This document shows, one piece after another, positions 3,996 through 60,094 of a DNA stretch of 64,000 nucleotides. The stretch comes from an uncultured Thermodesulfobacteriota bacterium. GTDB taxonomy: Bacteria > Desulfobacterota > WTBG01 > CAIYCZ01 > CAIRTM01. Under the pieces are notes generated by a model. The model was not told the DNA's origin. It was given only the letters and a program-made list of their open reading frames with translations, and ran no database searches. The first letter of the stretch is position 1. Each line of letters opens with the position of its first letter. Made by a program: the position numbers and the translations under genes. The stretch covers positions 10,520 to 74,519 of the forward strand of contig CAZFIB010000003.1 of the NCBI GenBank assembly GCA_964518865.1, given 5' to 3'.

Positions 3996-4649
3996 TTATG
4001 CGCTTTCTTCTGCCCGCGCGTCAAGCACGGCTTTAATTTTTTTAAGGCGGGTAAAGCTTTCGCGTTCGATCTCATCGAGCCGCATTCTGATATATTTAAC
4101 CGTGGCCTTGAGGCGGGGGATGACGATATATTCCAGAGCATTGACGCGGCGCTTGGTCTTTTCAACTTCCAGTGCAAGCCGGCGGACGGTTTCTTCTACT
4201 TCGGCCAGCTTTACGATTGTTGCCAGAGCATGCTCCATTTTAAGGGCCGCCTCGTCAAGGCGTGCACTGGTATCGGCAAAACCGTAGCCGCGGTGAACCA
4301 TGGTACGCTCGGCCTTGTCGGCCTCGATGATAGGCACCCGAACACCCATTATATTGCGGGAGCGCATGTCGATCTGCAGATCCTGTTCGGCATTCAGCGC
4401 TATTTCACCCACGGAGCCCACGCCCATGATCGCCTGGGATGCAAGAAAGGCACGGTAGGCATCGGCGAGCTGCTGCTCGGCATCCTGACGGATGGAACGG
4501 ACATTGCCCGCAATGCTTAAAAATTCGGATATCAGCGCATCACGCTTCTCCTTGAGAAGACGGTGACCGCGCTCGGCCAGCACCGCACGCTTTCTGAGCT
4601 GCAGAAGCTCCATTCTGGTCGGTTTGATACCTTCGATTACATCGGCCAT
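3996..4649 (-). CDS. atpD: V/A-type ATP synthase subunit D
   Basis: Coiled-coil protein with a start typical of subunit D (MADVIEGIKPTRMELLQLRKR...). It is the last gene of the atp operon. Confidence 0.9.
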   Translation of the reverse strand: MADVIEGIKPTRMELLQLRKRAVLAERGHRLLKEKRDALISEFLSIAGNVRSIRQDAEQQLADAYRAFLASQAIMGVGSVGEIALNAEQDLQIDMRSRNIMGVRVPIIEADKAERTMVHRGYGFADTSARLDEAALKMEHALATIVKLAEVEETVRRLALEVEKTKRRVNALEYIVIPRLKATVKYIRMRLDEIERESFTRLKKIKAVLDARAEESA

Positions 4650-4668: not shown

Positions 4669-6075
4669 TTAGTCGCTTTTCTGACTGTGGGCTGGATGAT
4701 ATTTCTTGATATGCTCCTCATCGATGCGCTTCAGATCGCTTTCATCGAGAATGTCGAGAAGCTTCCATCCCAGGTCGAGCGTCCCCTCGGTAATCGAGCG
4801 ATTCTCGTCCCTGCCCTGAATAACAAACTCTTTTTCAAACGCTTCGGCGAATTCCAGAAATTTTTTATCGCGCTCGGTCAGCGCCTCCTCACCGACGACC
4901 GCCACCAGGTTGCGCACATCCCGCCCCTCTGCATACGCGGCATAACACTGGTCCGAAACGCCCGAGTGATCTTCACGCGTGTTGCCCTCACCGATGCCCT
5001 GGTTCATGAGGCGCGACAGGCTCGGCAAAACATCAACCGGGGGATAAATGCCACGGCGGTGCAGGTCGCGGGACAGCACGAACTGACCCTCGGTAATGTA
5101 TCCGGTCAAATCGGGAATCGGATGGGTAATATCGTCATCGGGCATTGAAAGTATCGGCACCTGGGTTATGGATCCCTTCCTGCCCCTGATCCGTCCGGCC
5201 CGCTCGTAGCTCATGGCGAGGTCGGTATACATATAGCCGGGATAGCCGCGACGGCCCGGCACCTCTTCGCGGGCGGCGGCGATTTCCCGGAGCGCCTCAC
5301 AGTAGTTCGTCATGTCGGTCAGGATTACAAGCACGTGCATATCACACTCGAACGCCAGAAACTCCGCCGTTGTCAGCGCCATGCGCGGGGTGATTATGCG
5401 CTCGATTGCCGGGTCATCGGCGAGGTTGATGAAGGCCACGATCTGCTCCATGGCGCCGGTGCGCTCGAAATCGCGCATAAAGAAGTTGGCCTCCTCGCTG
5501 GTGATGCCCATCGCTGCAAAAACGACTGAAAACGGCTCGGTGGAGCTCAGCACCTTGGCCTGGCGGGCAATCTGAGCCGCAAGCTCATTGTGCGGCATGC
5601 CGGCGCCTGAGAAAATCGGCAGCTTCTGACCGCGGACGAGCGTGTTCATACCGTCGATCGTGGAAATGCCCGTCTGAATGAATTCGTTGGGAAACGCGCG
5701 CGCCGTCGGATTAATCGAAGCGCCGTTGATGTCGAGTCTCGTGTCGGATATGATTTCAGGGCCGTCGTCGATCGGCCGCCCCAGTCCGTCGAAAAACCTA
5801 CCGACCATGTCACGGGAAACGGCAAGCTTCATGGTATCGCCGATGAACCTGACGCTGGTGTCGCTGGTATCGATGCCCGCGGTTCCCTCGAAGACCTGAA
5901 CGACGGCAATACCTTCGCGGGATTCAAGCACCTGCCCGGTGCGGTCTTCTCCGGAACCGGTCCTGATTTTGACGACTTCCCCGAAGGCCACTCCCTCGAC
6001 TCCCTCGACAACCATCAGGGGTCCGGCAACTTCCTTGACGGTTTTGTATTCCCGGATTTTTATGTCGGAACTCAT
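4669..6075 (-). CDS. atpB: V/A-type ATP synthase subunit B
   Basis: 468 aa with full-length similarity to the regulatory B subunit. The 4-nt overlap with atpA shows coupling. Confidence 0.95.
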
Positions 6076-7841
6076 TCTGCCTCTCCTAATGAAGTAAATT
6101 GTTCTTCCATTCTGCTCATCAGCTGCGCGTGCTCATCGGCAAACGTCGTGTTGTCGATATATTTCATGCGGGAAATTTCATCCCTGATCGGAAGCTTGCC
6201 GATAGCGTCGATTCCCCTGCCCCGCTCGAGCGCCTGTTCGGCAAGGTCGCTGAACCTCATAATGGTCTGCATCATTTTGGACTGCTTTTCGAGCGGGCAG
6301 TAGGTATCCATCTTGTGAAATGCGTGCTGCTGCAAAAAGTCCTCTCTGACCATGCGCGCTACCTCGAGGGTAAGGCGCTCGCGCTCGGGCAGGGCGTCGG
6401 GTCCGATAAGCTGAACGACTTCGGCCAGCTCGGACTCCTCCTGCAGAATAACCATCGCCTTGGTGCGCAGCTGCCTGAATTCCGGTGACAGGTTTTCATC
6501 ATACCAGGCCTTGGTAAAATCAAGATACAGCGAGTAGCTTCGCAGCCAGTTGATGGCCGGAAAGTGGCGGCGGTCGGCAAGCGTGGAATCAAGCGCCCAG
6601 AACGAACTGACAACGCGCAGCGTGTTCTGTGACACCGGCTCGGACAGGTCGCCGCCCGGAGGGGAAACAGCACCGATAATTGAAACGGACCCGTAGCGCT
6701 CCTCGGAGGCCATAGTCTGCACACGGCCGGCGCGCTCGTAAAAGCTTGCAAGACGCGTTGCCAAATAGGCGGGGTAGCCCTCCTCGCCGGGCATCTCCTC
6801 GAGTCGCCCGGAAATCTCGCGCAGGGCCTCGGCCCAGCGCGAGGTGGAGTCCGCCATAATCGCCACATCATAACCCATGTCGCGGTAGTACTCGGCGATG
6901 GTCACACCGGTATAAATGGAGGCCTCACGGGCCGCAACCGGCATATTCGATGTGTTGGCGATCAGGGTCGAGCGCTCCATAAGCTTGAACCCTGTTTTGG
7001 GATCGTCGATTTCAGGAAACGTGTCAAGCACCTCGGTCATCTCATTGCCGCGCTCGCCGCAACCCACATAGACAACCAGCTGGGCATCGGCCCAGCGGGC
7101 TACCTGGTGCTGGCTGACGGTTTTGCCGGTGCCGAAACCGCCGGGGATGGCCGCCGTGCCGCCCTTGGCTATCGGGAAAAACGTGTCGTAAATCCGCTGC
7201 CCGGTCAGCAGCGGCACGCTCGGATCGACTTTCTTTTTATTCGGGCGGTTGTTGCGAACAGGCCACTTCTGCTTCATAACCACCGGAATCTCGCTACCGT
7301 CCTTATCAAGCACGGCTATGACGTCATTAACGGTAAACGAGCCCTGCTTGATCTCCTTGACCGTTCCGCTTACGCCGGGCGGGACCATAATCTTGTGCGT
7401 TATGACCTTCGATTCCGGGACCGTACCCAGCACATCGCCGGCGGTCACCTGCGCGCCCTTTTCAATCGTCGGTGTAAACTCCCATTTGGCATCCGGATCG
7501 AGACCGGGGACATTGATGCCGCGCGTGATAAAGTCGCCGGCTTTTTCCTGTATGCGCAGCAGCGGCCGCTGTATGCCGTCGTAAAAATTTTTAATAATGC
7601 CGGGTCCCAGTTCGACGGACAGCGGCTCGCCTGTTCGCATGACCTTTTCACCGGGCTTGAGACCCGAAGTATCCTCGTACACCTGGATGTAGGCTTCATC
7701 GCCGTCGAGCCTGATTGTTTCCCCCATCAGGCCTTCATCGCCGACCCGCACAACTTCGTACATTTCACAGCCCTGCAGCCCTTTTGCAATAACCAGAGGG
7801 CCCGCAATGCTTTTTATGCTTCCATCTTTATACTCGGGCAA
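6072..7841 (-). CDS. atpA: V/A-type ATP synthase catalytic subunit A
   Basis: 589 aa with Walker A 'GGFGTGKTV' and the non-homologous insert region typical of A subunits. Confidence 0.95.
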
Positions 7842-7911: not shown

Positions 7912-8220
7912 CTATTGAATGTCGGCGCCGATTGCCCTGCGAATAAGCTCGCGTATCGGATCCTCTTTGCGCTCAATCGGTCCGGATGTATCCGGTACTT
8001 CCACGATGATCGGCAGCATGCGCTTTGACTCCTTATGGTCGTCGATAAGGCGGCGGTTGTCTTCGGCAAACCGCTCGGTAACGATAACGATGCCGTTCGC
8101 CTCATCGGAAAGAATCTGCTTGAGATCCTGCCGACCCTCATCGTCCCCGTATACTTTTTTGACTCCTGAAAGTCGAAATGACGTCGCAGTGTTCCGGTCG
8201 CCGATAACTACAATATCCAT
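7912..8220 (-). CDS. atpF: V/A-type ATP synthase subunit F
   Basis: 102 aa starting 'MDIVVIGDRNTATSFRLSG', the subunit F signature. Confidence 0.85.
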   Translation of the reverse strand: MDIVVIGDRNTATSFRLSGVKKVYGDDEGRQDLKQILSDEANGIVIVTERFAEDNRRLIDDHKESKRMLPIIVEVPDTSGPIERKEDPIRELIRRAIGADIQ

Positions 8221-8223: not shown

Positions 8224-9345
8224 TTACACCCTCAATACGAATTCCCGTATGCTGTCGGCAGCCAGGCCGGCCTCTTTCGCGCGGGAGATAGCCCGAATGT
8301 TTCTTATTTCCGTCTCTTTAAGCGCCAGGTACCCCAGTATCGGGGCGATGCCGTACGGCTGCTTGACGGCGGTCTGCCGGCCGATCGAAAGCACGGTCTC
8401 GTCGATCGCTTTTTCAAGCGCATACATGGTTTTGTCGCGCTCATACTCGGGAAGCGCATCCATCAGCGGCTTGAAAAAAACCGTGCCGTCGACCTCGGCC
8501 ACAAGCGCCGGGACCTCGTCTACCTCATCAAGAACGTTGAACAGCGAGGCCGGCAAATCCCCGCCGTCGATAAGATAGCGCTCGACATCGCTCAGCACGA
8601 GATGGTCGGACTTGGCACGCAGAAGAATTTTCAGATTGAGGCCGTCGATACGGGCGGCAAAGCTCGGCCGCAGATCGGACAGTTCCCGGTCGGCGGTAAC
8701 GTTTTTCCACATGGATTCAAGCAGGGTCTTGTCAAGCAGCGCCTCCAGCGGCAGCAGGCTGTTCTCCTGCTCATAGACCGAAAGCCTGCCTGCAAGAGGC
8801 TCGTAGCGGGTTCCCTCGAAAACGGGCAGCAGGTCTTCTATGCTGACGGCTTCACACATTTTCTTTAAAACCTCGGCATCGATCTCGCCGAACGGTATGG
8901 CAGCCGCAATGATTTCTTCCGACGGCAGCCCTGCCCGCACGCCGCGCATCACCGTTTTCAGATTGCGAACATCCCACTGCTGCTGCAGATAGCTGAACGC
9001 GCTTGAGACTTTTGCAGGCAGCATCCCGGCTATTTCGCTGTACACGTCGGCGCTTTGCCGCGTCAAAAGTGATTCGATCGACTCGGCGCTTTCGAGCACA
9101 AGCCCCTGCATTGCAGATGCATATTCTGAGTTTTCAAGAATTGATGCGATCTCGGCGACCGACCCCGCATTGATCATATCGTCAACCGTTTCGGGTTTGA
9201 GCAGCCGGGCTTCCTTGGCCCTGACCCTGGCCGTCACATACAGGTACGGCAGGATTGATCGCAGGTTGCGGATCAGAAAAACAAGAAACGGCAGCAGAAA
9301 GCCGAGCAGCAGCAGTAGTATCACAAGAAAAAAGTTTGCATCCAT
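8224..9345 (-). CDS. atpC: V/A-type ATP synthase subunit C (V0 d-like) with N-terminal hydrophobic extension
   Basis: The 'YLYVTARVRAKEARLL' motif matches the subunit C N-terminus. The ATG at 9345 with a GGGAG RBS is the only in-frame start. It adds a ~28-aa hydrophobic segment (FFLVILLLLLGFLLPFLVFLI). Confidence 0.8.
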   Translation of the reverse strand: MDANFFLVILLLLLGFLLPFLVFLIRNLRSILPYLYVTARVRAKEARLLKPETVDDMINAGSVAEIASILENSEYASAMQGLVLESAESIESLLTRQSADVYSEIAGMLPAKVSSAFSYLQQQWDVRNLKTVMRGVRAGLPSEEIIAAAIPFGEIDAEVLKKMCEAVSIEDLLPVFEGTRYEPLAGRLSVYEQENSLLPLEALLDKTLLESMWKNVTADRELSDLRPSFAARIDGLNLKILLRAKSDHLVLSDVERYLIDGGDLPASLFNVLDEVDEVPALVAEVDGTVFFKPLMDALPEYERDKTMYALEKAIDETVLSIGRQTAVKQPYGIAPILGYLALKETEIRNIRAISRAKEAGLAADSIREFVLRV

Positions 9346-9348: not shown

Positions 9349-9999
9349 CTATGACTCCCGGCTGAAGAGCTCTTTGGCGACATGGGTACGTATTTCGTCC
9401 CGAAAACGATCGATACGCGATTCAAACGTATTATCAACCCGCACCGTACCGCTGCTGCTGCGAACGGCGACACCGCCCATGCTGCTCAGCGATTCTTCGG
9501 ATATGCGCAGTCTGATCTGCGTTCCGGTCCGGCCGCCTGCCTGACCGGCAATTCTGTCGAGCAGGTCCTGACCCACAAGCTGCCTGTCGCGCCGGGGTAC
9601 CATCACTTCGAGATCGGTTTCGCCGGAAGAGACAACGGATTCGGAAATAAGCCGCTCCAGCACACCGGCGTAAGAAATACCGTCGGCGCTGCCCTGCTCG
9701 GCCAGGCTGCGGAGCGTATCCATGGCGGTATCAAAGGATTTCTGCACGACAGATTCCTGAGCTCTGACCTTCTCGCGGCGGGCTTTTATGCGGGCTTCCG
9801 CGAGAATGCGCTGTGATTCGCGGCGGGCCTCCTGCCCGGCGCGGGCAAGAATAGCCTGTTTCTTCTGCTCGGCCTGCCTGCGCGCCTCACCAAGACGCGC
9901 ATCGACCTTTTCCTGTGCTTCCGCCATGCCGGCCGATTCAGCTTCCGCGGCGCTTTTTTCAATCTGTTCGATAATCTTCCGGACTCCATCGGTTGCCAT
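9349..9999 (-). CDS. atpE: V/A-type ATP synthase subunit E
   Basis: Start chosen at internal Met55 (MATDGVRKIIEQIEK...), which is preceded by a GAGAGG RBS. The coiled-coil, charged sequence is typical of subunit E. The upstream extension of the ORF has no homology. Confidence 0.8.
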   Translation of the reverse strand: MATDGVRKIIEQIEKSAAEAESAGMAEAQEKVDARLGEARRQAEQKKQAILARAGQEARRESQRILAEARIKARREKVRAQESVVQKSFDTAMDTLRSLAEQGSADGISYAGVLERLISESVVSSGETDLEVMVPRRDRQLVGQDLLDRIAGQAGGRTGTQIRLRISEESLSSMGGVAVRSSSGTVRVDNTFESRIDRFRDEIRTHVAKELFSRES

Positions 10000-10221
10000 A
10001 TGGAACCTCTCAAAAAAAATGAGTTGATAAATATCGTGATCAATACATGCCCAAAAAATACGACTTGACAGCAAAACAGCATGCGGAAACATCTGCTGTC
10101 TGTGAACACACTGCCCGGCCCCCCGTATGCAGGAGGGAGATCCGGCGATCATACCGCACACCCGCTTTTTAAAAGCGGTGCGTTCGCACAGGGCCCGTTC
10201 AGTCGTTCTATTAGTGCGGCA

Positions 10222-10701
10222 TTACATAATGCCGGCGCCGACCATGATCAGAATCGCAATCAGCAGTGCGAATACCGCAAAGGTTTCGGACATGACCGAA
10301 AGAACCATATTCTGGCCCAGCGTTTCAGGCTTTTTGGCTACGGATCCCATGGCGGCCCCGGCCGTCATGCCCTGACCGATCGCGGTCAGGCCGCCCAGTG
10401 CGGAAGCAAGACCTGCACCGAGGCTGATAAGCCCCAGCTCCATGGAAATCGGCTTTATCTCGCCGCCGAGCAGCCCGACGCCCATCAGGATGAGTACGGC
10501 CGTTACGAACCCGTAAATTCCCTGCGTCTGGGGAAACGCCTGCAGGATCAGTACCGGGCCGAATTTTTTAGGGTCTTCGGCTATAACGCCCGCGCCGGCG
10601 GCGCCCGCAATACCGACACCGATTCCGGAACCGATAGCGGCAACGCCCATCGCAAGCCCGGCACCAAGTGCCGCCAGTCCTAAGCCAAGTGTAAATTCCA
10701 T
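10222..10701 (-). CDS. atpK: V/A-type ATP synthase proteolipid subunit K (duplicated 4-TM c subunit)
   Basis: 159 aa, Gly/Ala-rich, two-hairpin proteolipid. It contains TQxxY, Q110 and E139, which align to the E. hirae NtpK Na+ site. Confidence 0.9.
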   Translation of the reverse strand: MEFTLGLGLAALGAGLAMGVAAIGSGIGVGIAGAAGAGVIAEDPKKFGPVLILQAFPQTQGIYGFVTAVLILMGVGLLGGEIKPISMELGLISLGAGLASALGGLTAIGQGMTAGAAMGSVAKKPETLGQNMVLSVMSETFAVFALLIAILIMVGAGIM

Positions 10702-10780
10702 ACCTGTATACCTCCTTACTGCGTTATATGAAATGTATTAATTCTGTTTGCATATCACGAGTCGGCTAAAAAAACCGGCC

Positions 10781-12748
10781 TTACGTTGAAGCCTGTCGTG
10801 CTTCCGTCACTTCCCGCTTGACGCGGAAGGGTTCAAAATCCTCTCCCCCGCCGCTGTAAAACTTGCCGAAAAATTCGACAAAATGAAGGCGGATGCCGTG
10901 GGCAAAAGCCCCCATCAGGTTAAGCACAAAGCTGAACAGATGGCCGCCTGCCAGTATCAGAATCGCCACGATCCAGCCGAAATACGGGATGCCGAACACC
11001 ATCTTTGCGAGCGCGTTGATAGCCACCGCAAGACCGAAGCTCACCAGCCCCAGCGCCATAAGGCGCGCATAGGACAGCGAATCGCCCAGCAGCCCGGTCA
11101 CGCCGAACAGCGCCATGCCTTTTTCGGCATACAGCAGCAGCAGCAGTGCCGGTACCGCGAAAACGATCGCCAGGGTCGATGCCTTGAGATAAAAGCAAAT
11201 CAGGGACAGCTCAAGAAAAAATATCCAGACGTTTTTGAGCGCTTCCGGAATATCGTTCCTGCGCATGTCCTTAATGATACCGACGACGATACCGAGATTG
11301 AGGTGCAGCAGGCCGACGCCGATGGCGAACAGGAGAAAATTGGACACGTCGACCATCGGATTTATAACCACTATTTTGTTCAAAAACGTCATGCCCAGGT
11401 ACTCGGTGGCGAGGTTGCCGAACCACCCCCCCGTCAACGAGCCGAGCACGACTGTGGAGGCTCCGCCAAGGGTCAGCAGCATGCCTGCGCTGCGGTACAG
11501 CGAATAGTATTTGCCGCCGCCGCGCAGGATAAAAACCCCCAGCAGCAGACACATCAGCCCGTACATGGCATCGGTTATCATGAGCCCGAAGAAAAAGAGA
11601 AACGAGGGGAATATGAGCACGGTCGGATCGACCTCGTCATATCGGGGCGGCGCATACAGTTTGACAAGCAGTTCGAAGTGCTTGAGAATGCCCGGGTTGT
11701 CGAGTGCGACCGGCAGTTTTTCCACCGGCTCGTCGGGTTCGGTCGCCTGACCGATTGCAAGCCCGTCACATGCACCCTCAATATCCTGAATCACTTTCTG
11801 CGCATGCTTTGCTGTCACAAAGCCCTCAATGGCAACGACATGCTCTGTGCGAGCGAAGCCGGTATAGGCCTCGGCGCGTTCGCGCTCGATAAGAAGGAGC
11901 TCACGCAGGGCTTTCAGGCGATTGCGGTAGGTTGCAGCGGTTCCCGCAATGAGTTTCCGGCAATGCTGCTGTTTTTCATCGAGGGCGTCGATACGCCTGG
12001 TTATGTCCGCAATGGCGTCGGCGGGTGTCCCCGCGGTGTCGACCGGCTGAATGCGCTCGACATCCCGGCGCCGCAGACAGGCTGCTGCTTCATCCGCATC
12101 ACTGTTCAGGCAAACAAGCAGAATACAGCTTTCAGAATCCGAGACAGCGGTCTCGGCAAAAAACGAGCAGCCGTTGGTAACTTCTTCAATTTCTTCGCGC
12201 AGCGGCCCGAATTCTTTTCCGGGTGCGACCCCGAGCAGTGCGGTGACAAAAGCTCCCTGACCCAGAAGCTCGATGGACACCTGCACTGATTTGATCCGCT
12301 GCAGGGCATCGCGCTGGGCAACGAGGTCCGTTTTTTCGGCCTCGCATTTTTCAAGCAGGGCCAGCTGGTCAGACACTTCCGCCTCAACCGTGGCAACAGC
12401 CGAATCGGTTTCCTTAAACAGGTCCTCTCCCGCAATATCCTCTATTGCTATTTTTTCGGGAGGCGCCGGCGCAAACAGTGTTTTAAAAAAGCCCTCCTCC
12501 TGCTCGGGCGCGACCATGGTAAAAATATCCAGAAGCCGGTTGACGGCCATTATCTGTGTCATTACCCGCCGAACATCGACGGACATGGGGTGTGAGCTCA
12601 GCAGATCGCTCCACTCCTGCGTTGCAAGACGACTGCGAAAGTCGGTAATCTGTACGGCGCCCAGCTCGTGCAGACGCTTGACCGCCTGCTGCTTGACTGA
12701 TTCATGAACGGCAAAGCGGACCCTCTGCATTCTTTCAGGGTAAAACAT
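10781..12748 (-). CDS. atpI: V/A-type ATP synthase subunit I (a subunit)
   Basis: 655 aa with an N-terminal soluble coiled-coil domain and a C-terminal polytopic membrane domain. The start (MFYPERMQRV) is typical. Confidence 0.9.
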   Translation of the reverse strand: MFYPERMQRVRFAVHESVKQQAVKRLHELGAVQITDFRSRLATQEWSDLLSSHPMSVDVRRVMTQIMAVNRLLDIFTMVAPEQEEGFFKTLFAPAPPEKIAIEDIAGEDLFKETDSAVATVEAEVSDQLALLEKCEAEKTDLVAQRDALQRIKSVQVSIELLGQGAFVTALLGVAPGKEFGPLREEIEEVTNGCSFFAETAVSDSESCILLVCLNSDADEAAACLRRRDVERIQPVDTAGTPADAIADITRRIDALDEKQQHCRKLIAGTAATYRNRLKALRELLLIERERAEAYTGFARTEHVVAIEGFVTAKHAQKVIQDIEGACDGLAIGQATEPDEPVEKLPVALDNPGILKHFELLVKLYAPPRYDEVDPTVLIFPSFLFFFGLMITDAMYGLMCLLLGVFILRGGGKYYSLYRSAGMLLTLGGASTVVLGSLTGGWFGNLATEYLGMTFLNKIVVINPMVDVSNFLLFAIGVGLLHLNLGIVVGIIKDMRRNDIPEALKNVWIFFLELSLICFYLKASTLAIVFAVPALLLLLYAEKGMALFGVTGLLGDSLSYARLMALGLVSFGLAVAINALAKMVFGIPYFGWIVAILILAGGHLFSFVLNLMGAFAHGIRLHFVEFFGKFYSGGGEDFEPFRVKREVTEARQAST

Positions 12749-13063
12749 TTAGCCCTCTCCTATCATCCGGCTGACTATAATCTTTGCAGCTGCCTGCACA
12801 TGGGCTTCGCCGCTTTCGGTGACGCTCCGTGCGCTTTCCCCGCCTTCCTTGACAATTGACTCAGCCTGTGCCTCAGCTTCAGCGCAGGCTTTTTGTATGA
12901 TTTCATCTGCCGTGCGTTCAGCCTCCTTTTCGGCGTCGGCAATGATCTGCTTTGCCTCGGATTCTGATTTTGCCAGCATATCGGCCGCTTTTTTCTTTGA
13001 CGCCTCTATGCGTTCCTGAACTTTCTGTTCGGCTTCCTTGATTTTTTTAAGGGAATCGATCAT
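12749..13063 (-). CDS. atpH: V/A-type ATP synthase subunit H (G-like stalk subunit)
   Basis: 104 aa charged helical protein (KE-rich). It is the first gene of the operon, immediately upstream of atpI. Confidence 0.6.
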   Translation of the reverse strand: MIDSLKKIKEAEQKVQERIEASKKKAADMLAKSESEAKQIIADAEKEAERTADEIIQKACAEAEAQAESIVKEGGESARSVTESGEAHVQAAAKIIVSRMIGEG

Positions 13064-13311: not shown

Positions 13312-16300
13312 ATGAGGTGCACTGATTCTATGATAACACAAACTGCAGGACACAGTTCTAAAGTCATAGGCAGACTTGCAATCATGCTCCTGCTGCTATG
13401 CCCGTCCGCGCACGGAGCAACGCTTGGCGTTCAAAAGGAGGGCGGCGCCTGCGACCCGAGCGGAACACCCTATTATTGCACAATCCAAAGCGCTCTTGCG
13501 GCTGCAAGCAACGGAGACACTGTATGCGTGTATGCAGCGACATCCACCGGCGCCTATGTCGAGGCGTTGACACTGACCAGGCAGGTTTCACTTGTCGGCA
13601 AAAAAAGTGACGGCAGCGATGCCTGGTCGGCGGGCCTTGCAGGCTCACTCAGCGGAGCACCGATCCTGACCATCACCGACACCTCTTCGTTTGCTTCTCA
13701 GCCGGTGGTGACGATAGGCGGGGCATCCGGAATCTCGATGCAGGGCCTTACCATTGACTCGCGCGGCTATCCCCTGACCTGCACCGCCATTACTTCGACC
13801 AGCTACGTATCGGTTACCTACTGCGATTTTCTAATGGGAGGAGATGCCGGAACCGACTGCGCGATCGGCGTGTATGACAATAACATTCCTGACAATATTA
13901 CCGTCACCTTTTGCAGGTTTGTCGGTCAGACAACCGGCACGGCCAACTGGTTTGCGGTTATGGGCGGTGCGGGGATAAGCTCCGTAACGCTTTCCTGCAA
14001 TCAGATAACGCGCACAAGCTCACTGCTCAGCCTTGGCAGTGCCGGCGACGTGCGTAATGTTCTCTACAACCGCAACACGTTTTACGGTACCGCGGGAGCC
14101 ATATTACTCAGTGATCCGCTCGGTGTGTCGGCAAAGGACTTTGCAAACATCCGTATCATTGACAACGAATTCGATGCAACCAATGAATATGCGGTTGTTG
14201 TAAGCAGTAACGTTGGCACAGATGATGCGGAAAACGGCGACTGGCGCTCGAACCTGGTTGTCAACAACAATGCCATCAAGACTTTGACGTCCTCAAGCTA
14301 CCCTGTCGTCGGTTTCGTCAGTTCCACGTTCAATATCACCCCGACCTATTATATGGACGCACAGCTGAACTGGTGGGGCGATCTGGACGGACCGGCGGAT
14401 GTTTCGTCCCGCGTGGATTACAGCCCCTGGATTGCCCAGGCGCAGGAGTACCGCACCGGCGGGGACCCGGCCTACTGGGGCACAAACGACAGCATTACCG
14501 ACGCCCTGGCGCAGGCCGGTGCAAACGACACGGTGTATGTGGTTGCCAAAGGCAGCCCCTTTGCCGAGTCGGTAACCGTGACGACCAGCCTGACCCTTAC
14601 GGGCAGAACAAGCGCGGGTGCGGACGCCTGGACCACCGGCACGGCCGGCGCCGCATCGGGAGCGCCGATTCTCGCTATTACGAATACGTCATTTTCAAAT
14701 CCCTTGATGCTTATTCGATCAACCGCAAACAATACGACTCTCAAAGGGTTTAAAATTAATACGGGTGGTGCTGTGGCACAGCAAATATCATGTACAACTT
14801 TTGGAGGCGCTGTAAGCAATGTTGATATTTCATATTGTGACTATGCGCTTGATGAAGGAGATAAAGCTATCGCTGTTGATTACGGAAACAGCATCAGCAA
14901 CCTTACTGCTACGTACAATACCTTCACCGGCCAAAATGACAATATTAGTAATTGGTTTTTTGTTGGCGAAAATGGGAGCGGAGGTGCAGTAAACAATGCA
15001 ATCCTTTCAAACAATTCAATAACAAATGCGATGTCAACGCTGCAGCTGAACAACTCAATTAAAAAAATACGTTATTCCAATAATACATTTAACAACAGCT
15101 GGGACGGGGGCGCAATTGCAACAAAAGCCGGGTATCTTCTTATTGAAGAACCTAACGATGACAATCCGAACATTATTCAAGGTATTACGATAACGCACAA
15201 CACCTTTAATAACGGTAATCCGGACACCGAGCCGAATGAATTCGGCGTTTTGATAGCAAATACCGTCGATCTTAATGAAACCGACTGGGAATCAAATCTT
15301 GCGATTCATTTCAATAATTTCCTTCAGGATGATGATAACGGAGGTTTCCCAATCGCAGGTTTTCAAACGGGTTCCCCGGATCATGCTAGCGAGATAACCG
15401 CGACAAAAAACTATTGGTCAGCGGCACCTAATGTGAGCAGCAACGGTATGGTTTCCGACAATGTGAAATATAACCCCTGGGTCAGAAGCGGAATCGATGG
15501 CGGATCCTATGCGGTACTCGGCGCCAACACAGTCGACTATATAACCGACACCACGAACGGCATTTACCTGACCGTCGAAACCGGTGCCGGTGGCGCGACC
15601 CTGCTGCCCACAAAATACGTCGGCAATCCCACCTCCACCTCACTGACAAGCGCGCAGGGGTATTTCGATCTCGGAATCAAGTCCGGCACAATCGATAAAA
15701 TAACCGCGACATTCACCTACTCCGGCAGCGACCCGAGCATCTCGAACCCGGCTGTCTGGTATAACGGCAGCACATGGGTTTCCTGCTCCAACCAGTCCCT
15801 CGATGCCTCGGCAAATGCGGTTACCGTTTACATCACCGACACAAGTCAGATTACGCCGACCATGAGCGATGTCGGAACCATTCACAATATAACACCCTCG
15901 ACCTTTTTCGCTCTCGCATTCTCGACAACCACAACGACAGCGCCCTCCACAAGCACATCATCGGCTGCGGCCACAACGACAAGCGTAACCGCCACATCCA
16001 CAACCACCTCAACCGGCGGCGGGGGAGGCAGCACGACAACGTCGACGAGCACCGTCCCGTCGACAACCACATCCGCGCTGCCTGATACCGCGAGCACGAC
16101 CACGATCGGGGTACCGCAGCTGAGCATAACGCCCGCTTCGCTCGAATTCGCCGACAATGAAAGCGCAAAGCAGCTCAGCATTGCCAATACCGGCACCGGA
16201 ACGCTCGACTGGTCGATCGACGACAATGCAACCTCGTATGCTGAGACAAGCGGATGGGTCTTCTCCGCGCGTCCCTCGACAGGACAGGTCATGGATACCC

Positions 16301-17064
16301 CTGATTCCGTCACCCTGACGGTCAGCCGCACGCTTCTGTCGCCGGGCACCTACAGTGCCGAAATCCCGGTCATGTCGAATGCCGGCGATGCCGACATCGA
16401 CGTGGAGATGGAAGTCGCCCGAAGCGAGCTTCCGATCATGTCCGTGCGGCCGCGCCTGCTTCTTTTCCTGCTGGACGATATCGACAACCAGACCATGACC
16501 GTGCGAAACCTTTTTTCAGGAACGCTTCTCTGGGAACTTGAGGACCCGATATATCACCGCGGTGAGGGGTGGCTCTCCTTCACGCCCTCATCGGGCTCTG
16601 TCCGGCGCGAAGCCGACACCGTTACCGTGAGCGTAACGCGGGATGCCATGTCGCCCGGACTGTACAGCGCAACCGTTCCCGTGCGCTCCAACTTCAACCG
16701 CCGGAACATCACGGTCGTCATGCTTGTGCAGGAAGGGCCCGACCTGCAGATCTCGCCGTCGCTTCTGTTTTTCGGCCGCAATGACGAAAATGAAAAAGAG
16801 GTGCTCCTCACGAATACCGGTTCGGGAATTGCGAACTGGACGATTGATTCGGATGCCATCGACTACCGGGGTGGCGACACGCCATGGGTGGTATCGGTAA
16901 GCCCTCTGTCGGGCTCCACCGAAACGCTTGAGGAGGACACCGTTACCGTTACCGTCAGCAGGGACTCTCTCGGTTTCGGCCTGTACCGTGCGATCATTCC
17001 GATAACATCGGCAAACGGCGGCGACAAAAAAATCAACGTGTATTTACTGGTACCGTTTTTGTAA
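13312..17064 (+). CDS. giant secreted surface protein
   Basis: Signal peptide, then two parallel beta-helix modules each ending in an NWWG..DGP motif, then a Thr/Ser-rich linker, then 3x DUF1573/BACON-like Ig domains. Confidence 0.8.
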   Translation: MRCTDSMITQTAGHSSKVIGRLAIMLLLLCPSAHGATLGVQKEGGACDPSGTPYYCTIQSALAAASNGDTVCVYAATSTGAYVEALTLTRQVSLVGKKSDGSDAWSAGLAGSLSGAPILTITDTSSFASQPVVTIGGASGISMQGLTIDSRGYPLTCTAITSTSYVSVTYCDFLMGGDAGTDCAIGVYDNNIPDNITVTFCRFVGQTTGTANWFAVMGGAGISSVTLSCNQITRTSSLLSLGSAGDVRNVLYNRNTFYGTAGAILLSDPLGVSAKDFANIRIIDNEFDATNEYAVVVSSNVGTDDAENGDWRSNLVVNNNAIKTLTSSSYPVVGFVSSTFNITPTYYMDAQLNWWGDLDGPADVSSRVDYSPWIAQAQEYRTGGDPAYWGTNDSITDALAQAGANDTVYVVAKGSPFAESVTVTTSLTLTGRTSAGADAWTTGTAGAASGAPILAITNTSFSNPLMLIRSTANNTTLKGFKINTGGAVAQQISCTTFGGAVSNVDISYCDYALDEGDKAIAVDYGNSISNLTATYNTFTGQNDNISNWFFVGENGSGGAVNNAILSNNSITNAMSTLQLNNSIKKIRYSNNTFNNSWDGGAIATKAGYLLIEEPNDDNPNIIQGITITHNTFNNGNPDTEPNEFGVLIANTVDLNETDWESNLAIHFNNFLQDDDNGGFPIAGFQTGSPDHASEITATKNYWSAAPNVSSNGMVSDNVKYNPWVRSGIDGGSYAVLGANTVDYITDTTNGIYLTVETGAGGATLLPTKYVGNPTSTSLTSAQGYFDLGIKSGTIDKITATFTYSGSDPSISNPAVWYNGSTWVSCSNQSLDASANAVTVYITDTSQITPTMSDVGTIHNITPSTFFALAFSTTTTTAPSTSTSSAAATTTSVTATSTTTSTGGGGGSTTTSTSTVPSTTTSALPDTASTTTIGVPQLSITPASLEFADNESAKQLSIANTGTGTLDWSIDDNATSYAETSGWVFSARPSTGQVMDTPDSVTLTVSRTLLSPGTYSAEIPVMSNAGDADIDVEMEVARSELPIMSVRPRLLLFLLDDIDNQTMTVRNLFSGTLLWELEDPIYHRGEGWLSFTPSSGSVRREADTVTVSVTRDAMSPGLYSATVPVRSNFNRRNITVVMLVQEGPDLQISPSLLFFGRNDENEKEVLLTNTGSGIANWTIDSDAIDYRGGDTPWVVSVSPLSGSTETLEEDTVTVTVSRDSLGFGLYRAIIPITSANGGDKKINVYLLVPFL

Positions 17065-20531: not shown

Positions 20532-23500
20532 TTATCTGAAAAACAGCGGGACAAATATGATGACTGTTATTTCCTCATCACCGCCGTTCGACGTGACCGG
20601 CACAACCGCGCGGTGAAAGCCCGGCCGCAGGCTGCTTCGGTCGACACTGATCGTAATGGTTTCTTCACTCTCTTCACCGCTGACGGTACCGCTGTCTGAA
20701 TTGAAGCTTATCCAGTCGCTGCCGCGCCAGCCGTACTGAATGTCGCCGATACTCCACTCCAGAATACCGGTTCCCGCATTCTGAACTGCACACTGCGTTT
20801 CCGACACATTGCGGCGCATAAAGCAGAACGTCCGGCCGAGAGAAAGACGTGGCTCGCCCGTCGGAGGAGGTGCAGGTTCTTCCTCCTGGACGGTCAGAGT
20901 AACAGTTATATCCTTGCTGTCGGAGCCGTCTCGAAGTGCAAGTGTTATAATGGCATTGTATGTGCCCTGGTCCAAACCCTGACGGTCGACCGACACGGTC
21001 ATATCCATGCTGTCGCCCGGAGCAAGAGAGATGATGTTGGCATCCGTGCTGAGCCAGCCGCTGACGTCCGCGTACAGCGTTTCAACATACCAGGTCCCGT
21101 CCGCATCGCCCCGGTTCGTAACCGTAACCGTGGATTGCTCCTGCATCTCGAATGACGTGAATTCAAGGCTGCCTGAGCTGATCTCTACAGCCGGAGCAAG
21201 CGGAACATAGACATCACCCACACCAAGGCGCACGAGAACCGAGTCGGAGCCGCCGCTGGATGTTATGGGGAGATAGGCCTCGTAAATTCCCTCGCTCAAA
21301 CCGTCCCGGTTTACGTAGATGGTGACAATCTGCGTACCGGTACCGCTCGGGGGCTGAATCGACTCGATCCACCCGCTGCCGTCGAGGTACTGGGGGGTCC
21401 CGATGCTCCAGGTGAGGGTGCCGCCGCCGCTGTTGCCGATGGCGATAAAGCGGTCGTCGACGTCTTCAGGGAATCCGATATAGCCGTCCACATCTAGTAC
21501 CGGCGTCGTTGTGGAGCCGCCGCCTCCGCCGGTAGTGCCGCCACCGGTAGTGCCGGAATCGTCGTCATCGCCCGACGATGATCCTTCCATTGCGCCGGCA
21601 CCGAAGTAGGTTCCGCCGAGCTGTTCGATGGACGGGCTGCTGCTGTCTGTAATGACAACCTGCAGACAGTTGCCGACGCTTATTGCTGCCGGGTCGGTCG
21701 GTTTCCATTCGCCGGTATCACCGTTGAACCACATGACCGTATCGCCGCCGCTGCCGCAGATTTCGATTGTTATACTTGTCAACCCGTCAGGATCGGGGAC
21801 AAAAATATCGACATACTTTGCACCGGCCTTCAGCCCGCTGGACTTCCCGGTCGGTGTGCCGCTGTAGCTTGCAGCCATTATTTTGGCCGATCCCTCTACT
21901 TCAAGATTGACACCCGGCACCACGTCCGAGGCGCTGCTGCCGTTCATTTCCATCATGACAACCGAGCCTTCAAACGGACTTTCAAGGTGAGGAGAGAAGC
22001 AAACCAGGCCGCTGACGGATGCACCGCTGCCGGCAGCGGTTTTTCCCGCCGTGCAGTTGTCGGCCGTGTCGCCCGACGGACCGTCCTCAGCACCCCACCA
22101 GTTGTTGCGGGCATCCACGTGCTCGGTTCCGCTGTGCTCCAACCCAACCGGAACTGCAGGTTTGCATATATCCTCATTCTGGTCAGGATTGTACGTAGAC
22201 GGGCAGTTGTCGTCGTCATCCGCTATGCCGTCGCAGTCGGTATCATCAAGCGTAACCGTCTCTTCCTCGGGTGTTGACGGTATTGTTACGTTGCAGTTGC
22301 TGCCGCATGCATCGCCGATTCCGTCATCATCTGAATCCCGCTGATCGGGATTATAAACGTAAGGACAATTGTCATCACATGCTTCTGTCTCACCCTCCGC
22401 ACAGGCAACATCGCCGACGATACCGTTTTGGTCGCCGTCATCCGCTATGCCGTCGCAGTCGGTATCATCAAGCGTAACCGTCTCTTCCTCGGGTGTTGAC
22501 GGTATTGTCACTGTGCAGTTCTCCTGCACACCACCCTCCCCCGGAGTAAACTTGATGTTGTTGAAACTGATCTGCGTACCGTTGACATCATCGACGACAA
22601 AAGCTTTTTGATAGGTGCCGCTATCCATATCAATGGTCAGGCCGAGGATGGTGGCATTTTCCGCACGTATAGAAATCGCGGTGCTGTTCTCTGCAGGCAC
22701 ACCGTTTATAACCGGTGCAGCACCTTCGGCTGCCTTTATCGTCAGATTGGCAACATCAATCGCAAAACCGTCATAATCGCCGGTTTGAAGCTCAATAACC
22801 TTTTCTTCTTCGGGCGGAAGGGCGGCAAAAGCCGTAATGACATCGTTGATAGTTGCATACCCTGATCCGCCGCCCCCTGGACTGAAAAGAATGCTGTTGC
22901 TGTCATCACAGGTATCGCCGCGACCATCCTGGTCCGCATCATTTTGATCTTCGTTGTCCGTGTACGGACAGTTATCGCAGGCATCACCACGAGTGTCACC
23001 GTCACTGTTTGCCTGATCGCCATTTGCAATATCCGGACAGTTGTCACACGCATCACCGATAGTGTCATTATCAAAATCCAACTGATCGGCATTCGCGGTA
23101 TTCGGGCAATTGTCGCAGGCATCACCTACATCGTCACCGTCAAAGTCGGCCTGGGATGTATTGTTATCATACTGGCAGTTGTCGCACGCATCACCGATAG
23201 TGTCATTATCGAAATCCAACTGATCGGCATTCGCGGTATTCGGGCAATTGTCTTCTCCATCCTCAATACCGTCATTATCATCATCATCGTCACAGATATC
23301 GCCGATACCGTCGCCGTCGCTGTCACCGATATCGGGTGCAAATGAAGTAAATGCGGCGTCTTTGGCATAGGGATAAAAGCTCAGATTGGCGCTGACGCCC
23401 ATGACGGCAAGTTCACCGCCGGACCCGTCAGCAGCAGGGGTGCAGCCCAGAAAAGATTCGGAATTGTTAATTCCTCCTGACGGTCCGTCATCGGCTCCCC

Positions 23501-40421: not shown

Positions 40422-41014
40422 GCCGGGTGCCTCCGCTGCGGAAACGGATTTCGCCTGCCCGCAATAATCTCCTGGAGTTTCAATATGCCCTCTATCAGCC
40501 CTTCCGGCCGCGGCGGACAGCCCGGCACATAGACATCAACCGGTATCAGCCTGTCGACCCCCTCTATGACATAGTAGTTTCCTTCACCGGCAAACGGCCC
40601 GCCGGAAACCGCGCAATTGCCCAGAGCGATAACCCACTTGGGGTACGGCATCTGCTGGTACAGGGTAATGACCGACTCTGCCATCTTTTTGTTGACCGTG
40701 CCGGCCACGATCATAAGGTCTGCCTGTCGCGGCGAAGGCCGAAACACTTCGGCACCGTAGCGGGAAAGGTCAAAGCGGGCCATGCCCGCGCTCATCATCT
40801 CGATGGCACAGCACGACAGACCGAATGTCAAAGGCCACAGGGAGTTGGCGCGGCAGAGATTCTGCAGCTTTTCGCTGAGCCGCATGCGTCCGAGCACGCC
40901 GGCCTGCTGCAGCTCCTGCCCCTCTTCAAACTTTGAGCGCAGGCGGGAGGCAAACTCGTTGATGTCTAATAAATCTTTTTTTCGCTGCTCCAGAGAAAGA
41001 CTCCTTTCCTCCAT
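40418..41014 (-). CDS. nuoB: NADH-quinone oxidoreductase subunit B (20 kDa, N2 cluster)
   Basis: '[17 protein letters not shown]', '[10 protein letters not shown]' and '[10 protein letters not shown]' cysteine motifs. The exact start is uncertain (overlaps nuoA). Confidence 0.85.
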
Positions 41015-41361
41015 GCATATACCAGCCCCAGTGACAGAATGCCCAGGAACAGAACAAAAGCCGTTATGCCGCGAACCCGTTCGACCGCGTCAAAGGCGGC
41101 CGCAACGGGATACAGATAGAGAACATCAACCTCGAATGCCAGAAATATGAGGGCGTATAAATAATAGGCTATGCCGTGGCGAAAGTCCCACGACTGTCCG
41201 AAGGGCACGATCCCGCACTCATACGTCTGCAGCATGGCTGGCGAAATTCGTGCCGCAGGGCGCAGAAGGCGGGAGGCAAGAAACGGCAGACATGCAGCTG
41301 CAATACCGCTGCCCGCAAACAGGCTGATGTAAATGTATGCTCTGAGGTCTGCAAATTCCAT
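40966..41361 (-). CDS. nuoA: NADH-quinone oxidoreductase subunit A
   Basis: Start chosen at the internal ATG giving ~131 aa and 3 TM. 'YECGIVPFG' is the NuoA motif. The upstream extension lacks homology. Confidence 0.8.
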
Positions 41362-41400
41362 GAAAAGAACTAACAAACACCGCTGTAGTACACTGCGGAC

Positions 41401-41419
41401 ATGCAGGCAACACCTGCAT
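41401..41419 (-). promoter_or_regulatory. perfect 7-bp inverted repeat (ATGCAGG-N5-CCTGCAT) ~40-58 nt upstream of nuoA
   Basis: The palindrome is read directly in the nuo leader. It is a candidate operator or 5'-UTR hairpin. Confidence 0.3.
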
Positions 41420-58834: not shown

Positions 58835-58895
58835 AATCTCCCTCCATGATACATCGAGTGAACCCGCCGAACACGGACAGTGCCGCTCGGCTTAC

Positions 58896-60005: not shown

Positions 60006-60094
60006 TGCCGAATCCCCCGGCGTACACACAGCACATGCTGTGTATCCAGAACATAGCAAAGGGGTGGCATCCCGTCAATACGTGCGGGCAGGTA

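What the first reader, a model, noticed from the sequence alone, without database searches (positions are those of the whole stretch)
10222..10701. V-type ATPase K subunit carries the complete Na+-binding signature: likely Na+-coupled A/V-ATPase
The duplicated proteolipid has T59-Q60-x-x-Y63 in helix 2, Q110 in helix 3 and E139 in helix 4. These correspond to E. hirae NtpK T64/Q65/Y68/Q110/E139, which coordinate Na+. Together with the archaeal-type atpHIKECFABD order, this suggests a horizontally acquired Na+-translocating V-ATPase in this bacterium.
Basis: partly seen in the sequence, partly recalled or inferred. Interest (0 to 1): 0.5.

Follow-up and report, generated by a model that had tools for sequence, protein, structure and literature searches.

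The report
Sodium-type rotor subunit of A/V-ATPase
This gene encodes the membrane rotor subunit of an archaeal-type rotary ATPase in a sulfate-reducer-like bacterium, and it carries every residue known to bind sodium in the solved Enterococcus enzyme; the same residues occur in all relatives of this subunit type, so it is a sound but ordinary prediction.

Summary
ORF 10222-10701 (-) encodes a 159-aa, four-helix, duplicated proteolipid (K/c subunit). T59, Q60, Y63, Q110 and E139 (plus F56) align exactly with the Na+ ligands T64, Q65, Y68, Q110, E139 (L61) of E. hirae NtpK. NtpK (2BL2) is also the best solved match by sequence and by predicted fold (TM 0.86).

The gene sits in an intact nine-gene H-I-K-E-C-F-A-B-D operon. 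Its I subunit is closest to the E. hirae Na+-ATPase NtpI and keeps the stator arginine (R562).

The signature is not special to this gene. It occurs in 68 of 70 four-helix homologues and in every two-hairpin K subunit of the related loci that could be typed. Most single-hairpin c subunits lack it.

The host is a Desulfobacterota bacterium. Its A subunit falls with 100% bootstrap in a clade shared by Desulfobacterota MAGs and ANME-1/Methanothrix archaea, apart from the Firmicutes V-ATPases. So transfer between domains is supported, though its direction is not. Gene order is no evidence for it, because bacterial operons have the same order.

Verdict: a probably Na+-coupled A/V-ATPase and a new member of a known kind. 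Ion use and working direction (synthase or pump) are untested.

The parts
12749..13063 (-). atpH: small peripheral-stalk subunit (G/H-like), 104 aa, first gene of the operon
   Evidence: Pfam V-ATPase_G_2 at E = 6e-6, just below the gathering score. Same position in L081 and L082.
10781..12748 (-). atpI: stator a/I subunit, 655 aa, with the essential arginine R562 in SYARLMALG
   Evidence: Pfam V_ATPase_I. Best PDB hit is E. hirae V-type sodium ATPase subunit I, 8wci_P (E = 1.6e-43), against T. thermophilus at 6.6e-15. The Arg motif aligns to SYTRLMALG.
10222..10701 (-). atpK: duplicated four-helix proteolipid, 159 aa, with one carboxylate (E139). Na+ ligand set: F56 (carbonyl), T59, Q60, Q110, E139, with Y63 as stabiliser. 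Q58 occupies the lost-carboxylate position of hairpin 1.
   Evidence: It is the only proteolipid gene in the window.
9349..9999 (-). atpE: peripheral-stalk E subunit, about 216 aa. The ORF extends to 10161, but the probable start is the ATG at 9999.
   Evidence: The Pfam vATP-synt_E domain starts at residue 67 of the 270-aa ORF. A GAGAGG site lies upstream of the ATG at 9999. The homologue in L082 is called at 210 aa.
8224..9345 (-). atpC: rotor-socket C/d subunit, 373 aa
   Evidence: Pfam vATP-synt_AC39, E = 1.3e-71.
7912..8220 (-). atpF: central-stalk F subunit, 102 aa
   Evidence: Pfam ATP-synt_F, E = 5.5e-21.
6072..7841 (-). atpA: catalytic A subunit, 589 aa, TTG start
   Evidence: Four Pfam domains, including ATP-synt_ab_Xtn, the barrel-sandwich domain of the A subunit. 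Phylogeny.
4669..6075 (-). atpB: non-catalytic B subunit, 468 aa, overlapping atpA by 4 nt
   Evidence: Pfam; overlap.
3996..4649 (-). atpD: central-stalk D subunit, 217 aa, last gene of the operon
   Evidence: Pfam ATP-synt_D, E = 1.4e-61.

Best explanation
The gene encodes the rotor (K/c) subunit of a complete, intact A/V-type rotary ATPase of a Desulfobacterota bacterium.

Shown: each K subunit is a four-helix bundle made by duplication of the ancestral hairpin. Only hairpin 2 keeps the carboxylate (E139); the matching position in hairpin 1 is Q58. The ligand positions match the E. hirae site.

Inferred mechanism: one Na+ binds per subunit, between helices 2, 3 and 4. The ligands are the side chains of T59, Q60, Q110 and E139 and the backbone carbonyl of F56, with Y63 holding E139 in place, as in the E. 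hirae NtpK ring. As the ring turns against the I subunit, R562 displaces the ion from each site in turn. This couples Na+ flow across the membrane to rotation of the D/F/C stalk and to ATP synthesis or hydrolysis in the A3B3 head.

I commit to Na+ as the physiological coupling ion. The working direction cannot be read from sequence. I lean slightly (about 55:45) towards a reversible enzyme that makes ATP from a Na+ gradient rather than a dedicated Na+-extrusion pump. Its closest relatives are the A-type ATP synthases of ANME-1 and Methanothrix-type archaea, and enzymes with this rotor type have been shown to synthesise ATP.

The operon belongs to a lineage shared between Desulfobacterota and Halobacteriota archaea, so it crossed the domain boundary at least once, long enough ago to have taken on host composition.
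For: - Ligand identity with NtpK: the phmmer alignment to 2bl2 and a MAFFT alignment of 72 four-helix sequences (70 database homologues plus the window protein and NtpK), with [FLIM]-T-Q-Y-Q-E in 68 of the 70 homologues. T59/Q60/Q110/E139 are invariant in alignment A1.
- Fold: AF2 pLDDT 96 with four helices. Foldseek top hit is 2bl2_A at TM 0.86, rmsd 2.0 A, 39% identity.
- Motif tracks subunit type: across 64 typed loci, all two-hairpin K subunits carry T-Q..Y in hairpin 1 and Q..E in hairpin 2. Most single-hairpin c subunits have a hydrophobic residue at E+2 and F/L/I at E+5.
- Stator: best solved relative is the E. hirae Na+-ATPase NtpI (E = 1.6e-43), and the arginine is conserved.
- Operon intact: nine genes, tight spacing, ribosome-binding sites. 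It is conserved in synteny in L081, L082 and L001.
- Rule and precedents: a complete ligand set predicts Na+ (PMC2359735). Na+-dependent A1AO enzymes with V-type c subunits exist, and the E. callanderi enzyme synthesises ATP (PMC9171764).
- Weak context in the window: an agcS Na+:alanine symporter and a complex-I-like cluster with two MrpD-like 'Na+/H+ antiporter subunit D' proteins.
- Lineage: the clade window + L082 + Desulfobacteraceae + Methanothrix + ANME-1 has 100% NJ bootstrap. Named relatives at 72-74% identity are both Deltaproteobacteria and Halobacteriota. K relatives include Ca. Methanoliparum (73%), ANME-1 (66%) and Methanotrichaceae (64%).
Against: - No biochemical data exist for this enzyme or for any member of its clade.
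- From my own knowledge, not tested here: ligand sets predict Na+ binding, but all such sites also bind H+, so the ion used depends on the Na+/H+ ratio in the habitat. The habitat is unknown here; the sample is SRR7048224 and no paper was found.
- From memory: the Methanosarcina acetivorans enzyme has been reported to use both ions.
- The authors of PMC13343851 could not assign H+ or Na+ specificity to the ATPases of Desulfatiglandales MAGs from c-subunit alignments.
- Differences from NtpK near the site have unknown effect: Q58 for G63, S138 for V138, F141 for Y141.
- Direction: related Desulfobacterota (Desulfatiglandales clade A) carry an F1Fo ATPase as well. That would fit an auxiliary pump role.
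- I could not see the rest of this genome.
Confidence: 0.75

Rival explanations
1. The enzyme is proton-coupled, or uses both ions, in vivo despite the Na+ ligand set. The polar cage binds H+ (or H3O+) because the organism lives at low Na+ or low pH, or because second-shell differences shift selectivity.
For: Some Na+ ligands persist in H+-ATPases, and Na+ enzymes translocate H+ when Na+ is absent (PMC2359735). T. thermophilus c keeps Q, E and T yet is regarded as H+-coupled (alignment plus my own knowledge). Second-shell differences from NtpK exist: Q58, S138, F141. The habitat is unknown. Ion specificity was reported as unresolved for related Desulfatiglandales ATPases.
Against: All five ligands plus the Tyr are present and invariant across the family, unlike the partial sets of H+-type subunits. 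The purified enzymes with this subunit type cited are all Na+-dependent. Purifying selection on Q60 and Y63, which the single-hairpin c subunits with incomplete ligand sets lack, is hard to explain without Na+.
Confidence: 0.15
2. It is Na+-coupled but works only as an ATP-driven Na+ extrusion pump, like the E. hirae Ntp enzyme. It would be auxiliary to an F1Fo ATP synthase encoded elsewhere, maintaining Na+ homeostasis and a Na+ gradient for symporters.
For: Desulfatiglandales clade A MAGs carry both F1Fo and V-type ATPases together with an NhaE antiporter. A duplicated one-site c subunit has classically been linked to pumping (PMC9171764 introduction). A Na+:alanine symporter in the window would consume a Na+ gradient.
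Against: The A subunit belongs to a clade with archaeal A-type enzymes rather than with the Enterococcus lineage. ATP synthesis by a V-type-c enzyme at 90-150 mV has been demonstrated. Whether this genome has an F1Fo operon is unknown; only ~64 kb of this genome (the window) could be examined.
Confidence: 0.35
3. The operon is native and vertically inherited in this bacterial lineage. Its similarity to archaeal sequences would then reflect archaea acquiring a bacterial operon, or contigs mis-binned as archaeal.
For: In the denser NJ tree, the archaeal subclade (ANME-1, Methanothrix, Halobacteriota) is nested among subclades that contain Deltaproteobacteria. The operon has host-like GC and GC3. 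It is syntenic in related MAGs.
Against: All outgroups to the clade are archaeal: Methanomicrobia, Hydrothermarchaeota, Thermococci, Thermoplasmatales at 58-64% identity. Archaeal membership rests on several independent assemblies, including a 1.25-Mb Ca. Methanoliparum contig. From general knowledge, A-type ATPases are the ancestral archaeal enzyme and F-type the usual one in Desulfobacterota. In either case a crossing between domains is still required.
Confidence: 0.2

Closest known systems
Enterococcus hirae V-type Na+-ATPase rotor subunit NtpK (PDB 2BL2) and the Ntp enzyme (8WCI)
   Same: Both are four-helix duplicated proteolipids with a single carboxylate. The ligand set is identical (T, Q, Q, E plus a backbone carbonyl, with the Tyr stabiliser) at aligned positions. 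It is the best match by sequence (E = 8e-20) and by fold (TM 0.86). The I subunit is also closest to NtpI and keeps the same Arg motif. The order of homologous genes is the same.
   Different: K identity is only about 39%. The lost-carboxylate position is Q58 here and G63 in NtpK; S138 replaces V138 and F141 replaces Y141. The A subunit is only ~58% identical to A subunits of the Firmicutes clade that carries NtpK-type rotors (E. hirae itself was not in the tree), and it branches with archaeal sequences instead. The host is a Gram-negative anaerobe rather than a fermenting Firmicute, so the physiological role may differ.
A1AO ATP synthases with a 'V-type' c subunit: Pyrococcus furiosus, Thermococcus onnurineus, Eubacterium callanderi KIST612
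   Same: A-type enzyme with a four-helix, one-site c subunit. These are Na+-dependent, and the E. callanderi enzyme was shown to synthesise ATP (PMC9171764). That is the mode of action I favour here.
   Different: The Thermococci-labelled locus retrieved here (L030) has a 12-hairpin proteolipid rather than a four-helix one.
Thermus thermophilus V/A-ATPase c (L) subunit and other single-hairpin archaeal c subunits
   Same: Homologous hairpin sharing Q in the odd-numbered (first) helix of the hairpin and E-T in its second helix. The overall enzyme architecture is the same.
   Different: These have a single hairpin with one site per two helices. E+2 is hydrophobic (L/I/M) and E+5 is F/L/I rather than Q and Y, so the Na+ ligand set is incomplete. 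From my own knowledge they are regarded as H+-coupled.
V-type ATPase reported in Desulfatiglandales clade A MAGs (mBio 2026, PMC13343851)
   Same: A V/A-type ATPase in uncultivated Desulfobacterota. A K homologue named 'Desulfatiglandales bacterium' (P0078, 64% identity) carries the same L-T-Q-Y-Q-E signature.
   Different: It is a different order-level lineage. Those authors left ion specificity unresolved. Here alignment to NtpK, rather than to F-type c subunits, gives a clear ligand assignment.

Membership tests
V/A-type ATPase proteolipid subunit K (Pfam PF00137 x2; NCBIfam V-type ATP synthase subunit K) | Score above the curated family thresholds | tested here: met
   Pfam ATP-synt_C scores 118.8 bits against a cut-off of 24, in two stretches. 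NCBIfam NF006219 scores 114.7 bits against a cut-off of 108. Three other K models score below their cut-offs.
V/A-type ATPase proteolipid subunit K (Pfam PF00137 x2; NCBIfam V-type ATP synthase subunit K) | Two tandem hairpins forming four TM helices, with an essential carboxylate in the last helix | tested here: met
   Internal repeat. AF2 model has four helices at pLDDT 96. E139 lies in helix 4 and Q58 at the equivalent position of helix 2.
V/A-type ATPase proteolipid subunit K (Pfam PF00137 x2; NCBIfam V-type ATP synthase subunit K) | Encoded between the I and E subunits in a complete V/A-ATPase operon | tested here: met
   H-I-K-E-C-F-A-B-D are all identified by Pfam.
Na+-binding NtpK-type rotor subunit (E. 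hirae 2BL2) | Side-chain ligands equivalent to T64, Q65, Q110, E139 and the residue giving the L61 carbonyl, plus Y68 | tested here: met
   T59, Q60, Q110, E139, F56 and Y63 fall at the aligned positions. They are invariant or nearly so in the family.
Na+-binding NtpK-type rotor subunit (E. hirae 2BL2) | Same three-dimensional fold, so that the ligands can converge between helices 2, 3 and 4 | tested here: met
   Foldseek top hit is 2bl2_A at TM 0.86, rmsd 2.0 A over 151 columns. Helix breaks lie next to the ligand positions. Inter-atomic distances could not be measured because coordinates are not exposed.
Na+-binding NtpK-type rotor subunit (E. hirae 2BL2) | Measured Na+ binding or transport: Na+-stimulated ATPase, Na+ protection from DCCD, 22Na+ uptake | not testable with these tools
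   This needs biochemistry.
Na+-binding NtpK-type rotor subunit (E. hirae 2BL2) | Membership of the Enterococcus/Firmicutes V-ATPase lineage, judged by the catalytic subunit tree | tested here: not met
   The A subunit clusters with Desulfobacteraceae, Methanothrix and ANME-1 at 100% bootstrap, apart from the Firmicutes, Synergistales and Alistipes clade. It works like NtpK but is not of that lineage.
H+-type single-site A/V c subunits (Thermus and most single-hairpin archaeal forms) | Incomplete ligand set: hydrophobic residue at E+2 and no Tyr at E+5 of the ligand-donating helix | tested here: not met
   The window has Q60 and Y63 at those positions. 36 of the 39 single-hairpin subunits typed have T-[ILMV] at E+1/E+2 and F/L/I at E+5; two more have other incomplete sets (L/I at E+1), and one (L036, Methanocellales) carries the full Q-E-T-Q-Y set.

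The most novel reading that the evidence does not exclude
The operon may represent a so far undescribed lineage of Na+-coupled A-type ATP synthases, with a one-site, four-helix rotor subunit. The lineage would have been exchanged, possibly more than once, between Desulfobacterota and the Halobacteriota archaea they live with syntrophically (ANME-1, Methanothrix, Methanoliparia). It would give bacteria near the thermodynamic limit a way to make ATP from a Na+ gradient alongside or instead of F1Fo. The neighbouring complex-I-like enzyme with two MrpD-like subunits and no NuoEFG could be the Na+-exporting partner, by analogy with MBH plus the Na+ A-ATP synthase in Pyrococcus.
Probability: 0.2. 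Interest if true: 0.55.

Novelty: new member of a known kind. Interest (0 to 1): 0.25.

Why it matters
If the prediction holds, this uncultivated Desulfobacterota lineage runs part of its energy metabolism on sodium, through an enzyme of archaeal type. That bears on how sulfate-reducer-like bacteria conserve energy in marine or subsurface sediments.

It also resolves the ion-specificity question left open for V-type ATPases in Desulfatiglandales MAGs (PMC13343851). Aligning to NtpK rather than to F-type c subunits gives a clear Na+ ligand assignment.

The shared clade with ANME-1 and Methanothrix is a tidy example of an entire bioenergetic machine crossing between domains.

None of this overturns current understanding. 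Na+ ligand sets in duplicated K subunits, and V/A-ATPases in bacteria, have been known since 2005-2008.

Tried and rejected
- Gene order as evidence of archaeal origin: rejected. The same (H)IKECFABD order is found in bacterial loci such as Finegoldia, Peptostreptococcaceae, Christensenellaceae, Omnitrophota and Actinobacteria.
- Compositional signal of recent transfer: none. Operon GC is 56.3% against 53.1% for the rest of the window, and GC3 is in the same range as other genes.
- Finding the source genome among GTDB species representatives: not found. The best A-subunit match was 72%. Exact copies exist only on Logan contigs of SRR7048224, and these add nothing beyond the window. So I could not check for an F1Fo operon, Rnf or Nqr in the same genome.
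- Literature search for the sample and assembly accessions: no hits.
- Papers on ANME and their sulfate-reducing partners (PMC9012536, PMC10553843): they do not discuss this ATPase.
- A second proteolipid gene or hybrid rotor in the window: none found.
- tRNA genes as integration markers: none in the window.
- Promoter and terminator scan of the operon: counts close to shuffled expectation, so not informative.
- The idea that the motif is a distinctive feature of this gene: rejected, because it is family-wide.

Full report
**What is at the coordinates.** ORF 10222-10701 on the minus strand encodes a 159-aa protein. It has an ATG start and a strong AAGGAGG ribosome-binding site 7 nt upstream. 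Pfam finds two ATP-synt_C hairpins (118.8 bits against a cut-off of 24). NCBIfam model NF006219, 'V-type ATP synthase subunit K', is passed (114.7 against 108). The two halves of the protein align with each other. It is the only proteolipid gene in the window.

**The claimed residues.** F56, T59, Q60, Y63, Q110 and E139 are present as stated, and I checked their codons by hand in the sequence.

- A phmmer search of all PDB sequences returns E. hirae NtpK (2bl2) as the best hit (E = 8e-20).
- The printed alignment puts T59/Q60/Y63 on T64/Q65/Y68, F56 on L61, Q110 on Q110 and E139 on E139.
- An AlphaFold model built on 53 homologues is confident (pLDDT 96, pTM 0.88). It has four TM helices, with breaks at residues 56-57 and 137-138 next to the proposed site. 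T59/Q60/Y63 lie in helix 2, Q110 in helix 3 and E139 in helix 4.
- Foldseek against the PDB gives 2bl2_A as the top match (TM 0.86, rmsd 2.0 A, 39% identity), ahead of eukaryotic V-ATPase c subunits.

**The signature is a family trait.** Of 70 four-helix homologues down to about 50% identity, 68 carry [F/L/I/M]-T-Q-Y-Q-E at these six positions. In a 53-sequence alignment with 53% mean column identity, T59, Q60, Q110 and E139 are invariant and Y63 is at least 90% conserved.

I then typed every hairpin of the proteolipids next to 64 related A-subunit loci:

- All two-hairpin K subunits, bacterial or archaeal, have x-x-[Q/G/M/A]-T-Q-Y in hairpin 1 and Q-x-E in hairpin 2 (followed by T in all but three loci).
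- Most single-hairpin c subunits have Q/E...E-T followed by a hydrophobic residue at E+2 and F/L/I at E+5, which is an incomplete ligand set.
- The exceptions with a full set per hairpin are a Methanocellales single hairpin and a 12-hairpin protein (L030).

So the Na+ ligand set marks the 'duplicated, one-carboxylate' subunit type as a whole. This is what Mulkidjanian et al. 2008 describe (PMC2359735). The window protein has Q58 at the position of the lost carboxylate, as do the Desulfobacteraceae (L001) form and three archaeal forms (L011, L041 and hairpin 1 of L030). E. hirae and the other Firmicutes-type sequences have G there (one has A), and the Thermoplasmatales forms have M.

**The rest of the machine.** The gene lies in a nine-gene operon on the minus strand:

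| Gene | Coordinates |
|---|---|
| H | 12749-13063 |
| I | 10781-12748 |
| K | 10222-10701 |
| E | 9349-9999 |
| C | 8224-9345 |
| F | 7912-8220 |
| A | 6072-7841 |
| B | 4669-6075 |
| D | 3996-4649 |

All are identified by Pfam. They have ribosome-binding sites and tight spacing, except for a 222-nt gap between K and E. The best solved relative of the I subunit is the E. hirae V-type sodium ATPase subunit I (8wci_P, E = 1.6e-43), against 6.6e-15 for T. thermophilus. The essential stator arginine is present as R562 in SYARLMALG, aligned to SYTRLMALG. Nothing suggests decay. The operon recurs in the same synteny in a 97%-identical relative (L082, GCA_028282925.1) and, with the same gene order, in a Desulfobacteraceae MAG (L001).

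**Host and origin.** The window is bacterial. It encodes LexA, SurA, a BamB-like protein, a GGDEF response regulator, IlvD and Map. All named relatives of its IlvD are Deltaproteobacteria, Desulfobacterota or Desulfobacteria MAGs at 74-78% identity.

Among one genome per GTDB species, the closest A subunits are:

| Relative | Identity to the window A subunit |
|---|---|
| Desulfobacteraceae MAG | 72% |
| Methanothrix | 68% |
| Methanophagales / ANME-1 | 67% |
| Other archaea | 58-64% |
| Firmicutes-type V-ATPases | no more than 60% |

In an NJ tree of 82 A subunits, the clade window + L082 + L001 + Methanothrix + ANME-1 has 100% bootstrap support (200 replicates). It is separate from the Firmicutes/Synergistales/Alistipes clade whose K subunits carry the NtpK (E. 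hirae)-type signature.

A wider protein search finds more than 100 clusters at 72-90% identity. The named ones are Deltaproteobacteria (including contigs of 5.1 and 3.2 Mb) and Halobacteriota archaea. K-subunit relatives include Ca. Methanoliparum (73%), ANME-1 GoMg4 (66%), Methanotrichaceae (64%), and Desulfobacterales and Desulfatiglandales (64-65%).

In the denser tree the archaeal subclade is nested among bacterial ones, while all outgroups are archaeal. Exchange between domains is therefore well supported. Its direction and number are not, and archaea-to-bacteria is only the more parsimonious reading.

The gene order is the same in bacterial V-ATPase operons, so it says nothing about origin. 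There is also no compositional anomaly, so any transfer is old.

**How it most likely works.**

Shown:
- the ligand set, the fold, the stator arginine and the complete operon.

Inferred:
- each K subunit binds one Na+ between helices 2, 3 and 4;
- rotation past R562 of subunit I loads and unloads the sites;
- Na+ flux is thereby coupled to ATP synthesis or hydrolysis in the A3B3 head.

The enzymes with this 'V-type' c subunit cited by Litty and Muller (P. furiosus, T. onnurineus, E. callanderi) are Na+-dependent, and the E. callanderi enzyme makes ATP at 90-150 mV (PMC9171764).

The working direction here is open. Related Desulfatiglandales MAGs carry F1Fo as well (PMC13343851), which favours an auxiliary Na+ pump. 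The archaeal A-type affinity favours a Na+-driven synthase. So, weakly, does a neighbouring complex-I-like cluster with two MrpD-like subunits, together with a Na+:alanine symporter. I lean about 55:45 towards a reversible enzyme that synthesises ATP.

**Rival readings.**
- The enzyme uses H+, or both ions, in vivo. Sites of this kind also bind H+, and the habitat is unknown.
- It works only as a pump.
- The operon is native to the bacteria and the archaea are the recipients.

**Novelty.** Na+ ligand sets in duplicated K subunits, the rule that predicts ion use from them, and bacterial V/A-ATPases are all established. V-type ATPases have already been noted in Desulfobacterota MAGs, with ion specificity left unresolved. 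This is a new member of a known kind. The modest added value is a clear Na+ assignment for that Desulfobacterota/Halobacteriota clade and the documentation of the shared clade itself.

**Limits.**
- The trees are neighbour-joining, not maximum likelihood.
- Few metagenomic relatives carry names.
- Statements about M. acetivorans using both ions and about T. thermophilus H+ coupling rest on my own knowledge.

Noticed in passing
window 29959-41562 (-): A complex-I-like cluster: nuoA, B, C, D, H, I, J, K, followed by two MrpD-like antiporter subunits, then NuoM and NuoN. The first MrpD-like gene (34987-36474) hits 'monovalent cation/H+ antiporter subunit D'. The second (32986-34791) hits NF009310 'Na+/H+ antiporter subunit D' at 716 bits against a cut-off of 564. 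There is no NuoE/F/G and no canonical NuoL, so this is an unusual hybrid membrane arm that might move Na+.
   Followed up: partly
window 57494-60059 (-): An agcS-family Na+:alanine symporter (TIGR00835, 527 bits) lies directly downstream of alanine dehydrogenase. It would consume a Na+ gradient.
   Followed up: partly
window 9999-10221 and 10702-10793: There is a 222-nt non-coding gap between atpK and the probable atpE start. The mechanical ORF for E runs on to 10161 with an implausible Cys/His/Trp-rich N-terminus. A terminator-like hairpin (10793..10777, minus strand) overlaps the atpI stop codon, ~75 nt upstream of the atpK start. Together these may set the high K:I:E expression ratio.
   Followed up: partly
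window 13312-17064 (+) and 20532-24254 (-): Two very large proteins (1250 and 1240 aa) that look secreted. The first has no Pfam hit and a Thr/Ser-rich linker, and a homologue sits next to the ATPase operon in L082 as well. The second has thrombospondin type 3 and BACON-like domains.
   Followed up: no
window 41637-43148 (-): A 503-aa ORF immediately upstream of nuoA has no hit in Pfam or NCBIfam.
   Followed up: no
L030 5277-8177 (+): A MAG labelled Thermococci encodes a 966-aa proteolipid of 12 tandem hairpins. Eleven carry the full Q-L-E-T-Q-Y Na+ set. It resembles the 13-hairpin Methanopyrus kandleri subunit mentioned in PMC2359735.
   Followed up: partly
L003 5844-11500 and L004 611-5740: The Methanothrix and Hydrothermarchaeota loci closest to the window's A subunit have H-E-(C)-F-A-B-D with no I or K genes in between. 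Their membrane subunits must be encoded elsewhere.
   Followed up: partly
protein P0106 (907-bp ENA contig): A 209-aa predicted protein carries both Na_H_Exchanger (PF00999) and ATP-synt_C hits. The part that aligns to the window K subunit (60% of the K sequence) is 96% identical to it. It is either an assembly or frameshift chimera, or a Na+/H+ exchanger gene abutting atpK in a close relative.
   Followed up: no
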